DNA of 40,387 nt from Shigella phage SFPH2. The position numbers and the translations under genes were made by a program. Positions 31,361 through 35,394 of this stretch are shown one piece after another. Numbering within the stretch: position 1 is the stretch's first letter; the number at the start of each line of letters is the position of its first letter. The notes under the pieces were generated by a model. That model was not told the DNA's origin and ran no database searches. It was given only the letters and a program-made list of their open reading frames with translations. Location: sequence record MH464253; one strand, written 5' to 3'.

Positions 31361-33067
<1,707 letters not shown>

Positions 33068-33114: not shown

Positions 33115-33137
33115 CATCCCTAAGGTGATAGTTTAGC
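33115..33137 (-). promoter_or_regulatory. Phage RNAP promoter variant upstream of primase-helicase: GCTAAACTATCACCTTAGGGATG
   Basis: Consensus with 2 substitutions; transcript starts with GGGAUGAGAC-CAUGA-GUCUUGUCCC stem-loop. Confidence 0.65.
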
Positions 33138-33345
33138 TGAAGAAGCCTTTCAGTTGCTCGGCTTTCTTGTCAAGACCTTTGGCACGTAGGCCAGCGTCCA
33201 GAGACTTGATGCGCAGACTATCCGCTTCCGCAGCAGCCGCTTCCGCACCTTTAGCCGCAGCAGATGCGACTTTTCGTTCCACACTCGCAGCACGAGCATA
33301 GCCACGCACAACCAGACGACCCAGAAATTCAATAAACTTAATCAT
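33133..33345 (-). CDS. Hypothetical protein (70 aa), Ala-rich
   Basis: ATG with AAGGAG SD 7 nt upstream, immediately after amidase gene. Confidence 0.55.
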   Translation of the reverse strand: MIKFIEFLGRLVVRGYARAASVERKVASAAAKGAEAAAAEADSLRIKSLDAGLRAKGLDKKAEQLKGFFS

Positions 33346-33359
33346 GTTAGTGCTCCTTG

Positions 33360-33818
33360 TTAGCCTCGGTCGGAAGTGACCAGTTCGTTAGTATTCAGCC
33401 AGCGCTGCAAGTCAAAACTTGGGCAAGCCTTTGGTGCTACATCGTGGTGGGCCTTGATGTCTGCCTGAGGGTACAGTGCCTTCAGTTCAGCCAGCTTGTT
33501 TCGTAGAGCGCTCATCTGAGCAGGAGTGAAGTTGGCTTCAAACTTGCCCTTGGCGTCAATTCCACCTACAAGGCAGACGCCTACTGACCGGGAGTTCCAG
33601 TCCTTAACGTGGGACCCTACTACATCGACCGGGCGGCCTTCTTCCACAGTGCCATCACGCTTGATGACGAAGTGATAGCCTACGTCCAGCCAGCCCTGCT
33701 GCTTGTGCCACATGCGGATAGTGTCTACCCCGATGTCCTGAGACGGTTTGGTCGCACTACAATGGACGAAGATTGCGTCAGTTACTGTACGCGGTTTGAA
33801 CTGAACCTTACTTACCAT
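33360..33818 (-). CDS. gp3.5: N-acetylmuramoyl-L-alanine amidase (T7 lysozyme, RNAP inhibitor)
   Basis: 152 aa; VQFK.R..TDAIFVHCSATKPSQ..GV..IR.WHK.QGWLDVGYHF.IKRDGTVE.GR, GVCLVGGID.KGKF.ANFTPAQM, HH.VAPKACPSFDL.RW...NELVTSDRG match T7 gp3.5. Confidence 0.97.
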   Translation of the reverse strand: MVSKVQFKPRTVTDAIFVHCSATKPSQDIGVDTIRMWHKQQGWLDVGYHFVIKRDGTVEEGRPVDVVGSHVKDWNSRSVGVCLVGGIDAKGKFEANFTPAQMSALRNKLAELKALYPQADIKAHHDVAPKACPSFDLQRWLNTNELVTSDRG

Positions 33819-34032
33819 TGTACACCACCAGCTCGACGATTACGAGATTCAGGTGAGACTTGAAGCGCTCGCTAACGGTCGTGTGCATCTGGAGGCGCTT
33901 ATGGTTGAAGACATGCGAGTTGCTAATCTTCACGTACACTTCGTCCGGTCGACCATGCACGATGAACGCGTAGCCCACCGGGATTTTATCAATGGTCAGT
34001 CGCTCGCGGACTACCTGCACTTCTTTAGTCAT
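33808..34032 (-). CDS. Hypothetical protein (74 aa) inserted between endonuclease I and amidase
   Basis: ATG overlapping gp3 stop with AAGGAG SD 7 nt upstream; no equivalent gene recalled in T7. Confidence 0.5.
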   Translation of the reverse strand: MTKEVQVVRERLTIDKIPVGYAFIVHGRPDEVYVKISNSHVFNHKRLQMHTTVSERFKSHLNLVIVELVVYNGK

Positions 34033-34481
34033 TTCTTAGCTCCTTTCTTCGGGATGAGTATACCTGAGGGCAGACGCACAGTCGCCTCTTTCAGCCACTC
34101 AACCGGGATAAACTTGTCGGCAAACTTAAAGCCGTTCTTTTCGCACCATGCGCCATACGTGGTCGGGGACCCTTTGTACAGCTTGGAGCGGGAGGACGAG
34201 AACACGAACCGGATGTCCAGCTCAGGGTGTTGCTCGCGCACCAGCATATGCTTCTTACGGTCCTCACTGTCGAAGATACCTTTGGTCTCGACGATGATTC
34301 CGTTCGGAAGGATGAAGTCTGGTGTGTACTTGTGGTCGGAAGCCGGAATCACATAGTTGATATAATGGCTTTCGTACTCCGCTTTGACGCCGTTCTGCTC
34401 CAGCCACTGCTGGTTCTTGGCCTCAAGTCCAGAGCGGTAGGCACCCACAGAGTGCCCCCGTTTTGGTGTCCATGCAGCCAC
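34029..34481 (-). CDS. gp3: Endonuclease I (Holliday-junction resolvase)
   Basis: 150 aa; FRSGLE, YVIPAS.H.YTPDF.LPNGI.VETKG, DRKKH.L.REQHPELDIR.VFSSSR.KLYKGSPT.YG..CEK.G.KFADK.IP.EW.KE match T7 gp3. Confidence 0.96.
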   Translation of the reverse strand: MAAWTPKRGHSVGAYRSGLEAKNQQWLEQNGVKAEYESHYINYVIPASDHKYTPDFILPNGIIVETKGIFDSEDRKKHMLVREQHPELDIRFVFSSSRSKLYKGSPTTYGAWCEKNGFKFADKFIPVEWLKEATVRLPSGILIPKKGAKK

Positions 34482-34483
34482 GA

Positions 34484-35182
34484 TTAGAAGTCGTAATCGC
34501 CACCGGACTCAGAGTCATCACCACCCTCGGCATCTTCACCGAAGTCGTCAGACCCGAAGTCACCGTCAGTAGACGCTTTGTAGCCACCGGAGCCGATGTC
34601 TTCATCGTCACCCCAGCCACCATCGCCACCAGTGCCATCGCCGGACCACTCTTTCAGTTCGACCAGCAGGCAGGACTCCAGTTGCAGCTTCACGCTAGCA
34701 CCAGTCGCAGCGTTCCACTTGAACGGCAGGACTTTGAACTTGACCTTCAGCTTAGACCCTGAGCCAATATTCGGGACGTCACGGATGAGTTTAGCATCGG
34801 TGTCGTAGAACCGTAATACGATAGGCTCGGACTTGCCGTCTTTCAAGTAGGACGCAAAGCATTTGAACTTCAGGGTAACAGTGCCGTCACCGTTCTCAAT
34901 CCACGGCATGTCGCCTTCACGTGGTTCGATAGGCTTCTTGCCACGCTGAACCTGAGGCGGGTTCTTCTCGTGGTCTGCGAGTGCTTTTGCATACGCATCG
35001 TCGTGAATCTTCTGCAAGACATCAATCATCTTGCGGACCTTCGGGTCGCTCAGGTCGAATGTCAGGTTGACTTTATGCTCACCGCGCTCGTTGTACTTGG
35101 TGTCTGCTTTGTTAAGCCATGCGTAAGGCTCAACGATACCAGCTACCGGAGTGGTGAAAGTCTTCAGTTGCTCTTTAGCCAT
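34484..35182 (-). CDS. gp2.5: Single-stranded DNA-binding protein
   Basis: 232 aa (same as T7 gp2.5); EPYA, ANPP.V.RGKKP..P.EGDMP...NGDGT.T.KFKC.AS, IGSGSKLKVK..L.P.KWN...GASVKLQLES..LVEL, acidic C-tail ending DF. Confidence 0.96.
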   Translation of the reverse strand: MAKEQLKTFTTPVAGIVEPYAWLNKADTKYNERGEHKVNLTFDLSDPKVRKMIDVLQKIHDDAYAKALADHEKNPPQVQRGKKPIEPREGDMPWIENGDGTVTLKFKCFASYLKDGKSEPIVLRFYDTDAKLIRDVPNIGSGSKLKVKFKVLPFKWNAATGASVKLQLESCLLVELKEWSGDGTGGDGGWGDDEDIGSGGYKASTDGDFGSDDFGEDAEGGDDSESGGDYDF

Positions 35183-35211: not shown

Positions 35212-35234
35212 TGTTCCTAAAGTGATAGTTTAGT
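35212..35234 (-). promoter_or_regulatory. Phage RNAP promoter variant (phi2.5 position): ACTAAACTATCACTTTAGGAACA
   Basis: Consensus with one substitution, overlapping gp2 stop, upstream of SSB. Confidence 0.7.
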
Positions 35235-35394
35235 CGTGCAGCTCAGGTCGGATGCGGCCTACCACGAAACCAGCATCTTCATACTCCTGAGACTTTAGGG
35301 TCGCCTCGTCCAGAGACTTGGCGTATACCGGGACCTCAAAGGACTGAACGCGACCCTCAAGCTCCACGATGTACTTCTTTTCTTCAAGGCTCAT
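35230..35394 (-). CDS. gp2: Inhibitor of host RNA polymerase (T7 gp2-like)
   Basis: [34 protein letters not shown] matches T7 gp2 [35 protein letters not shown]; ATG at 35394 preferred over track GTG at 35412. Confidence 0.85.

What the first reader, a model, noticed from the sequence alone, without database searches (positions are those of the whole stretch)
33133..34032. Small accessory ORFs flanking the amidase gene (74 aa and 70 aa)
A 74-aa ORF with a strong SD is inserted between endonuclease I and the amidase (overlapping both), and a 70-aa Ala-rich ORF follows the amidase just before the primase promoter. T7 has no gene between 3 and 3.5; positions like this in T7-like phages often hold moron-like host-interaction genes.
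Basis: inference. Interest (0 to 1): 0.3.

Follow-up and report, generated by a model that had tools for sequence, protein, structure and literature searches.

The report
Two small conserved Kayfunavirus genes
The two small reading frames beside the amidase gene are real genes (3.2 and 3.7) already annotated in K1F-like T7-family phages; their function is unknown, one is a relocated copy of T7 gene 4.3, and the finding is ordinary rather than new.

Summary
The window is a K1F-like phage (genus Kayfunavirus), 98.6% identical here to Cronobacter phage Dev2, with its genes on the minus strand. A 74-aa ORF (33808-34032) lies between endonuclease I and the amidase. A 70-aa, 23% alanine ORF (33133-33345) follows the amidase and ends inside the phage promoter for the primase gene.

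Both are real genes. They have AAGGAG ribosome-binding sites 7 nt from the ATG. They occur in 219 and 189 of about 225 related phage records, and dN/dS is below 1 (0.01-0.21 and about 0.3-0.6). They are already annotated as gp3.2 and gp3.7 in K1F, Dev2 and SH4/SH5, with no function assigned.

The 70-aa protein belongs to the T7 gp4.3 family (phrog_1950; hhalign 95%). It is predicted as one long helix and lies upstream rather than downstream of gene 4. The 74-aa protein is the bare conserved C-terminal domain of K1F gp3.2 (157 aa). Relatives carry at least seven unrelated N-terminal modules, or none. The family has only 14 clusters among 1.84 billion representatives.

The "moron" reading fails: no own promoter or terminator, no GC anomaly, near-universal presence in the genus. 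Function remains inferred: small binding proteins of the middle infection period.

The parts
33808..34032 (-). Gene 3.2 (74 aa): the short form, holding only the conserved C-terminal core domain of Kayfunavirus gp3.2
   Evidence: ORF. phrog_15211 at E 7.5e-52, and residues 88-157 of phrog_16385. Annotated as gp3.2 in Dev2. Aligns to residues 88-157 of K1F gp3.2. dN/dS 0.01-0.21.
34040..34045 (-). Shine-Dalgarno AAGGAG of gene 3.2, 7 nt before the ATG; the ATG overlaps the gene 3 stop as ATGA
   Evidence: Read directly from the sequence. The same SD is listed for the SH4/SH5 ORF in PMC4925675.
33133..33345 (-). Gene 3.7 (70 aa, 23% Ala): homologue of T7 gp4.3, predicted as a single long alpha-helix
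   Evidence: ORF. phrog_1950 at E 3.9e-23; T7 gp4.3 hits the same family at E 6.3e-31. hhalign 95%, E 2.6e-8. AlphaFold2 helix over residues 2-69, pLDDT 91.9. dN/dS 0.3-0.6.
33353..33358 (-). Shine-Dalgarno AAGGAG of gene 3.7, 7 nt before the ATG
   Evidence: Read directly from the sequence.
33118..33142 (-). Phage RNA polymerase promoter for gene 4 (minus strand CTTCAGCTAAACTATCACCTTAGGG); the stop codon of gene 3.7 lies inside it
   Evidence: One of 12 copies of repeat family D1. The transcript start folds into an 11-bp hairpin.
35215..35239 (-). Phage promoter upstream of gene 2.5: the likely start of the transcript carrying genes 2.5, 3, 3.2, 3.5 and 3.7
   Evidence: Copy of repeat family D1. 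No promoter copy or terminator-like site lies between it and 33142.
34029..34481 (-). Gene 3, endonuclease I (flanking gene)
   Evidence: Pfam Phage_endo_I at E 1.3e-80, full length.
33360..33818 (-). Gene 3.5, N-acetylmuramoyl-L-alanine amidase (flanking gene)
   Evidence: Pfam Amidase_2 at E 5.5e-17; phrog_822 at E 1.4e-80.
31361..33064 (-). Gene 4, primase/helicase (flanking gene)
   Evidence: ORF; annotated as gp4 in Dev2.

Best explanation
The two ORFs are genes 3.2 and 3.7 of a Kayfunavirus (K1F-like T7-family phage). They lie in the middle-period (class II, DNA-metabolism) transcription unit that runs from the phage promoter upstream of gene 2.5 to the promoter of gene 4, in the order 2.5, 3, 3.2, 3.5, 3.7. 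Both are translated from strong ribosome-binding sites. Gene 3.2 is translationally coupled to endonuclease I (ATGA) and overlaps the amidase start.

gp3.7 is the Kayfunavirus counterpart of T7 gp4.3, a 70-aa protein that T7 does not need for growth. It is predicted as one long helix. Its amphipathic N-terminus (MIKFIEFLGRLVVRGY) and its C-terminal L..FF are conserved, while the Ala-rich middle evolves fast.

gp3.2 here is the minimal form of a family restricted to this genus and a few neighbours. It consists only of the roughly 70-aa C-terminal domain that every member keeps, with the invariant residues G, F, Y, SNSH-x-FN, QMHTT and RF. Relatives add any of at least seven unrelated N-terminal modules.

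Shown here: the genes are real, under purifying selection, homologous as stated, and co-transcribed. Inferred: both are small non-enzymatic binding proteins that act on host or host-defence proteins during the middle of infection. For gp3.7 this follows the report that T7 gp4.3 weakly counters a RADAR defence system.
For: - Identity of the phage and existing annotation of both genes.
- Conservation: 219 and 189 phage records.
- Purifying selection on gp3.2: dN/dS 0.01-0.21, for example 21 synonymous against 1 non-synonymous difference versus Ro45lw. This matches gp3 and gp3.5 at about 0.1.
- Selection on gp3.7: 0.3-0.6 overall; against the K1F-type alleles, 0.27-0.28 for the first 26 codons and 0.63-0.83 for the rest.
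- gp3.7 and T7 gp4.3 are one family: both hit phrog_1950 over their full length; BLASTP gives 32% identity; hhalign gives 95%.
- Helix model for gp3.7: pLDDT 91.9.
- gp3.2 is the C-terminal core. N-terminal modules fall into at least seven unrelated classes, and the K1F-type module is in only 56 records.
- Transcription unit.
- T7 gp4.3 is dispensable: the 4.3-4.7 block has been deleted from T7 (PMC12664982; PMC12153263), and the T7 record notes 'not essential'.
- T7 gp4.3 as a weak RADAR2 counter: deletion lowers plating efficiency by about 70%, and complementation restores it (bioRxiv 10.1101/2024.10.10.617714).
Against: - No functional evidence exists for either protein in any Kayfunavirus.
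- gp3.2 has no hit in Pfam, NCBIfam, PADLOC or PDB sequences, and its AlphaFold2 model failed (pLDDT 37). Its fold and activity are therefore unknown. Its invariant His, Ser and Asn residues could equally mark a catalytic or metal site.
- The RADAR effect of T7 gp4.3 is small and comes from a single preprint.
- The window protein is only 32% identical to T7 gp4.3.
- Some relatives lack gene 3.7 altogether, such as STP-SP3, so it is dispensable at least in some hosts.
Confidence: 0.8

Rival explanations
1. One reading: the ORFs are moron-like, recently and independently acquired genes inserted between core genes to manipulate the host.
For: - T7 has no gene between 3 and 3.5.
- The gp3.2 family is confined to Kayfunavirus and a few Providencia-type phages, with 14 clusters in 1.84 billion representatives.
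- Its N-terminal half is swapped between relatives.
- Homing HNH endonucleases insert at several spots in this region in relatives, so the region is recombinationally active.
Against: - There is no sigma-70 promoter beyond chance and no terminator.
- The only phage promoters are at 35215-35239 and 33118-33142.
- GC content equals that of the neighbours.
- The genes are present in 219 and 189 of about 225 related records.
- gp3.7 has homologues across the Studiervirinae: 513 further records matched by T7 gp4.3.
Confidence: 0.07
2. gp3.2 works with the phage's own neighbouring enzymes. For example, it could modulate or restrain endonuclease I, to whose translation it is coupled, or it could modulate the amidase.
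For: - The ATGA overlap with gene 3 is kept in both the short and the long forms.
- The position between genes 3 and 3.5 is fixed in all relatives seen, including the distant Providencia phage PSTRCR_120.
- There is a weak sub-threshold Pfam match to the immunity-protein family Imm11 (E 0.057, 13.2 bits against a 22.1 cut-off). This is only a lead.
Against: - T7, T3 and Przondovirus run the same endonuclease I and amidase without any gp3.2.
- The Imm11 match is below threshold and covers only 27 residues.
- Tight gene packing and overlaps are the rule throughout T7-like genomes (established knowledge), so they do not imply partnership.
Confidence: 0.12
3. gp3.7 and gp4.3 are accessory factors of the primase/helicase rather than host-directed proteins.
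For: The gene is adjacent to gene 4 in every genus examined, although on opposite sides. It is upstream in Kayfunavirus. It is downstream in T7 (about 90 nt after gene 4, partly overlapped by gene 4.2) and in Przondovirus.
Against: - The gene is dispensable in T7, whereas gene 4 is essential (established knowledge of T7).
- It is absent from some Kayfunaviruses that keep gene 4 (STP-SP3).
- Its fast-evolving middle segment (dN/dS 0.6-0.8) fits an arms race better than a replication cofactor.
Confidence: 0.12
4. One or both ORFs are chance reading frames that gene callers have annotated by habit, and no protein is made.
For: - ORFs of this length are common in non-coding frames of this window.
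- No expression data were found for any Kayfunavirus. The mass spectrometry in PMC4925675 detected structural proteins only.
Against: - dN/dS is far below 1 for gp3.2 and below 1 for gp3.7, with many synonymous changes.
- The reading frames stay intact across genomes with dS above 1.
- Both have canonical AAGGAG sites at ideal spacing.
- The gp3.7 alignment of 42 clusters keeps helical periodicity and gives a pLDDT 92 model.
Confidence: 0.02

Closest known systems
T7 gene 4.3 protein (gp4.3; phrog_1950)
   Same: - Both are 70 aa, and both match the same PHROG profile end to end.
- Both share the N-terminal M-x-K-x-I-x-x-LG-x-L-x-VR-x-Y motif and the C-terminal QL..FF.
- Both are middle-period genes next to gene 4.
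- The family is dispensable in T7.
   Different: - Identity is only 32%.
- The gene lies upstream of gene 4 and has no promoter of its own. In T7 it lies downstream of gene 4, behind promoter phi4.3.
- The middle of the protein is Ala-rich here.
K1F gene 3.2 protein (157 aa; phrog_16385) and Dev2 gp3.2 (74 aa; phrog_15211)
   Same: - It occupies the same locus between genes 3 and 3.5, with the same ATGA coupling to gene 3.
- The C-terminal domain is about 80% identical to K1F gp3.2 over residues 5-74.
- It is 100% identical to the proteins of Dev2, Salmonella phage ST10 and Shigella phage SFP21A.
   Different: It lacks the 84-aa N-terminal module of K1F gp3.2. The first roughly 20 residues of the core belong to a distinct 'short-form' allele, EVQVVRERLTIDKIPVGYAF against PPVTVKREVLTIDKIGVGQTF.
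Small middle-period host-takeover proteins of T7 (gp2, gp5.5, gp5.7, gp5.9, gp4.5; named from established knowledge of T7)
   Same: The resemblance covers small size, the class II location among replication genes, non-essentiality of the family (shown for gp4.3), and the absence of enzyme domains.
   Different: There is no sequence or structural relationship to any of them, and no target is known. This is a comparison of kind, not of family.
Mitochondrial ATPase inhibitor IF1, proposed as a structural analogue of T7 gp4.3 in bioRxiv 10.1101/2024.10.10.617714
   Same: Both are short proteins predicted or known to be a single long helix.
   Different: The family profile gives no PDB match at E up to 1. 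Foldseek returned no hit against PDB or BFVD. Any long helix resembles IF1, so the similarity carries little information.

Membership tests
T7 gp4.3 family (phrog_1950) | Full-length match to the family profile, shared with T7 gp4.3 itself | tested here: met
   Window protein: E 3.9e-23 over residues 1-69 of 70. T7 gp4.3: E 6.3e-31. hhalign of the 42-sequence profile against T7 gp4.3: 95.2%, E 2.6e-8.
T7 gp4.3 family (phrog_1950) | About 70 aa, all-helical | tested here: met
   70 aa; AlphaFold2 gives a helix over residues 2-69 with pLDDT 91.9. T7 gp4.3 itself was not modelled here.
T7 gp4.3 family (phrog_1950) | Gene located downstream of gene 4, behind its own promoter (phi4.3 in T7) | tested here: not met
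   Here it lies upstream of gene 4, after gene 3.5, with no promoter copy in front of it. It is downstream of gene 4 in T7 and Przondovirus. Synteny is not part of the PHROG definition, so homology stands.
T7 gp4.3 family (phrog_1950) | Non-essential, with a conditional contribution against the RADAR defence system | not testable with these tools
   Reported for T7 only.
Kayfunavirus gp3.2 (phrog_15211 / phrog_16385) | Conserved C-terminal domain with the invariant residues G, F, Y, SNSHxFN, QMHTT and RF | tested here: met
   phrog_15211 at E 7.5e-52. All invariant columns are present.
Kayfunavirus gp3.2 (phrog_15211 / phrog_16385) | Locus between endonuclease I and the amidase, with the start overlapping the gene 3 stop | tested here: met
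Kayfunavirus gp3.2 (phrog_15211 / phrog_16385) | K1F-type N-terminal module, giving a 157-aa protein | tested here: not met
   Absent: the window protein starts 4 residues before the core. The module is found in 56 of 219 records. The short form is itself under purifying selection (dN/dS 0.01 against Ro45lw).
Moron (independently transcribed insert in a phage genome) | Own promoter and terminator | tested here: not met
   One sigma-70-like site, on the wrong strand and at the chance level, and 0 terminators. There is no phage-promoter copy between 35239 and 33142.
Moron (independently transcribed insert in a phage genome) | Sporadic presence among close relatives, and deviant base composition | tested here: not met
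   219 and 189 of about 225 records carry them. GC is 0.51-0.54 against 0.50-0.57 around them.
IF1-type ATPase inhibitor | Detectable sequence or fold similarity to IF1 | tested here: inconclusive
   No PDB sequence hit and no Foldseek hit. Foldseek is not informative for a lone helix.
Imm11 immunity protein (Pfam PF07791) | Score at or above the Pfam gathering threshold | tested here: not met
   13.2 bits against a cut-off of 22.1, E 0.057, covering 27 residues.

The most novel reading that the evidence does not exclude
The roughly 70-aa gp3.2 core could be a new small fold that acts as a constant effector or anchor domain, with the freely exchanged N-terminal modules (at least seven unrelated kinds, or none) retargeting it to different host or defence proteins. 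That would make it a compact, polymorphic counter-defence cassette peculiar to Kayfunaviruses. In parallel, gp3.7 and gp4.3 would be a pan-Studiervirinae helical inhibitor of a host defence ATPase.
Probability: 0.12. Interest if true: 0.5.

Novelty: already known. Interest (0 to 1): 0.15.

Why it matters
As a discovery it matters little. Both genes are already in GenBank and in a 2016 paper as hypothetical proteins.

Three points are modestly useful:
- Kayfunavirus "gp3.7" should be read as the orthologue of T7 gp4.3. Anything learned about gp4.3, such as the reported RADAR effect, then transfers to about 190 more phages, many of them therapy candidates.
- The window carries the minimal form of gp3.2. 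This defines the conserved functional core, and its invariant polar motif, of a genus-restricted protein whose N-terminus is modular. It is a convenient 74-aa construct for structural and interaction work.
- The region can be annotated as part of the class II operon rather than as foreign inserts.

Tried and rejected
- AlphaFold2 on gp3.2 with its 8-sequence alignment failed (pLDDT 37). No fold search was run on that model because it would be meaningless.
- Foldseek on the gp3.7 helix model gave no hits against BFVD or PDB.
- Pfam, NCBIfam, PADLOC and PDB-sequence searches gave nothing significant for either protein. The sub-threshold hits (Imm11; FMN_red; and a chloride-channel model for T7 gp4.3) were rejected as chance.
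- An exhaustive HMM search found only 14 clusters, and a second profile search that included the most distant members found 10 proteins. Neither extended the gp3.2 family beyond these phages.
- Rfam found no RNA family anywhere in the window.
- The leader of the gene 4 transcript folds into a hairpin, but the region as a whole is not unusually stable (z = -1.2).
- Literature searches for gp3.2 or 'gene 3.2' with K1F found nothing functional.
- One search failed on a term-length rule, and one repeat finder failed on strand syntax.

Full report
**What the window is.** The 1.6 kb around the finding is 98.6% identical to Cronobacter phage Dev2 and 98.3% identical to Citrobacter phage SH4. It matches 225 phage records, nearly all of them Kayfunavirus (K1F-like Studiervirinae). 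The genes run on the minus strand, in this order:
- gene 2.5, ssDNA-binding protein, 34484-35182
- gene 3, endonuclease I, 34029-34481
- the 74-aa ORF, 33808-34032
- gene 3.5, amidase, 33360-33818
- the 70-aa ORF, 33133-33345
- gene 4, primase/helicase, 31361-33064

**Check of the observation.**
- The ATG of the 74-aa ORF overlaps the TGA of gene 3 as ATGA, and its last 11 nt overlap the amidase start.
- AAGGAG lies 7 nt upstream of each ATG.
- The 70-aa protein has 16 alanines.
- A 12-copy repeat, which reads TAAACTATCACTATAGGGA on the minus strand, is evidently the phage RNA polymerase promoter. One copy lies at 33118-33142, so the TAA stop of the 70-aa ORF forms the first bases of the promoter in front of gene 4. 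The previous copy is at 35215-35239, upstream of gene 2.5.
- T7 has genes 3 and 3.5 directly adjacent.
- ORF length by itself means nothing here. Antisense ORFs of 84-167 aa occur in the same stretch.

**Are they genes?** Yes.
- tblastn finds the 74-aa protein in 219 phage records and the 70-aa protein in 189.
- I made codon alignments against K1F, PE3-1, STP-SP3, SH3, EPr2 and Ro45lw. For the 74-aa ORF they give dN/dS of 0.01-0.21 at dS up to and above 1. Against Ro45lw there are 21 synonymous differences and 1 non-synonymous difference. This is the same range as endonuclease I and the amidase, about 0.1.
- The 70-aa ORF gives 0.3-0.6 in the well-diverged pairs. Against the K1F-type alleles the first 26 codons give 0.27-0.28 and the remainder 0.63-0.83.
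- Both are already annotated: gp3.2 and gp3.7 in Dev2 and K1F, and ORF18 and ORF20 in Table 5 (the SH4/SH5/SH3 ORF table) of Hamdi et al. 2016, with the same Shine-Dalgarno sequence for the gp3.2 ORF (the gp3.7 ORF's listed SD differs by two bases) and no function assigned (PMC4925675).
- Identical proteins exist in Salmonella phage ST10, Shigella phage SFP21A and others.

**The 70-aa protein (gp3.7).**
- It matches phrog_1950 over its full length (E 3.9e-23). T7 gp4.3 matches the same family (E 6.3e-31).
- Direct BLASTP gives 32% identity. A profile of 42 homologue clusters aligns to T7 gp4.3 end to end with 95% hhalign probability.
- The shared features are the N-terminal amphipathic segment (MIKFIEFLGRLVVRGY here, MFKLIKKLGQLLVRMY in T7) and the C-terminal QL..FF.
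- AlphaFold2 predicts one continuous helix over residues 2-69 with pLDDT 91.9. There is no transmembrane-grade hydrophobicity.
- T7-type gp4.3 is found in 513 further Studiervirinae records. In T7 and in a Przondovirus it lies downstream of gene 4. In Kayfunaviruses it lies directly upstream of gene 4, and nothing like it follows gene 4. So "gp3.7" is a relocated gp4.3 homologue, not a lineage-specific insert.
- T7 4.3 is dispensable.
- One preprint reports that deleting it lowers plating on a Pluralibacter RADAR system by about 70%, with rescue by complementation. The authors liken its helix to the ATPase inhibitor IF1 (10.1101/2024.10.10.617714). I could not confirm any IF1 relationship: there was no PDB sequence hit and no Foldseek hit.

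**The 74-aa protein (gp3.2).**
- It matches phrog_15211 (E 7.5e-52), and it matches only residues 88-157 of phrog_16385.
- K1F gp3.2 is 157 aa, and the window protein corresponds to its C-terminal 70 residues.
- An exhaustive HMM search of 1.84 billion representatives found only 14 clusters. In all of them the domain is at the C-terminus. A second profile search that included the most distant members added nothing outside these phages.
- Across all members, including Providencia-type phages at about 36-40% identity, the invariant residues are G20, F23, Y33, S37-N38-S39-H40, F42, N43, Q48-M49-H50-T51-T52 and R56-F57.
- The N-terminal halves fall into at least seven classes with no detectable similarity to each other. 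One protein carries two modules in tandem, and there are truncation series running down to nothing.
- The K1F-type module occurs in 56 of the 219 records. Roughly four in ten records appear to carry the short form, judged from an evenly spaced sample of hits.
- The short form is itself under strong purifying selection. It is therefore a functional minimal version, not a remnant.
- No Pfam, NCBIfam, PADLOC or PDB-sequence relative exists.
- The AlphaFold2 model failed (pLDDT 37). The fold is unknown, although the sequence pattern suggests a small all-beta domain (my inference).

**How it most likely works.**
- Shown here: both genes belong to one phage-polymerase transcription unit, in the order 2.5, 3, 3.2, 3.5, 3.7. 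There is no internal promoter, no terminator and no compositional anomaly. Translation signals are strong, and gene 3.2 is coupled to gene 3.
- Inferred: both are small, non-enzymatic binding proteins made in the middle period. Like the other small class II proteins of T7, they would act on host or defence proteins.
- For gp3.7 the only experimental lead is the weak RADAR effect of its T7 homologue.
- For gp3.2 the invariant polar patch suggests one conserved target, and the exchangeable N-terminal modules suggest optional additions.
- Rivals are listed separately: a partner of endonuclease I or the amidase, a partner of gp4, a moron, or a chance ORF.

**Comparison and verdict.**
- The "moron" reading fails each defining test that I could run.
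- The genes are already known as hypothetical proteins, so novelty is "already known" and interest is low.
- What this analysis adds is the gp3.7 = gp4.3 equivalence, with the switch of side relative to gene 4, and the definition of the gp3.2 core domain with its modular N-terminus.

Noticed in passing
window 34449-34481 (-): Gene 3 (endonuclease I) has no ATG start in this phage. The full-length frame, which matches Pfam Phage_endo_I over positions 1-149, begins with GTG at 34481, two bases after the gene 2.5 stop. K1F has ATG there (MAQWSAKRGH against VAAWTPKRGH). Annotations disagree: Dev2 RefSeq starts 11 codons later, and Hamdi et al. list only a 72-aa 'endonuclease' in their SH4/SH5 ORF table.
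   Followed up: partly
window, 12 sites: 988, 5189, 10666, 17951, 22413, 23409, 26228, 30769, 33118, 35215, 36065, 37838 (each about 25 nt, minus strand): These are the phage RNA polymerase promoter family, with minus-strand consensus TAAACTATCACTATAGGGA. The gene 4 copy has two mismatches near the start site (CACCTTAGGG), and its transcript begins with an 11-bp hairpin, GGGAUGAGAC...GUCUUGUCCC.
   Followed up: partly
L004 613-810; L005 1703-2152; L008 2470-2835: HNH homing-endonuclease genes sit at different points of this same region in relatives. In PE3-1 one lies before gene 3. In STP-SP3 one lies between 3.2 and 3.5, and that phage also lacks gene 3.7. In EPr2 one lies between 3.7 and 4, and the SH4/SH5 ORF table of PMC4925675 lists a T7 gp3.8-like HNH there too. 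The region is a recombination hot spot, which may explain the shuffling of the gp3.2 N-terminus.
   Followed up: partly
window 33133-33345 (-) versus L010 1761-1973: There is a mosaic breakpoint inside gene 3.7. Against Ro45lw the first 26 codons are nearly identical (dS 0.05), while the rest is saturated (dS 1.9).
   Followed up: no
L009 1195-2012 (Providencia phage PSTRCR_120): A non-Kayfunavirus member of the Studiervirinae carries a 153-aa distant gp3.2 homologue after endonuclease I. It is followed by an extra 117-aa acidic ORF before the endolysin gene, and neither has a known function.
   Followed up: no
one search hit H21 (OR786095.1), one search hit H173 (MT350292.1): Records labelled 'Staphylococcus phage MBBL139' and 'Enterococcus phage EFA-1' carry this enterobacterial Kayfunavirus region. 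MBBL139 is about 90% identical at the DNA level. EFA-1 is known here only from a 58% protein match to the K1F gp3.2 N-terminal module. The host labels in those database records are probably wrong.
   Followed up: no
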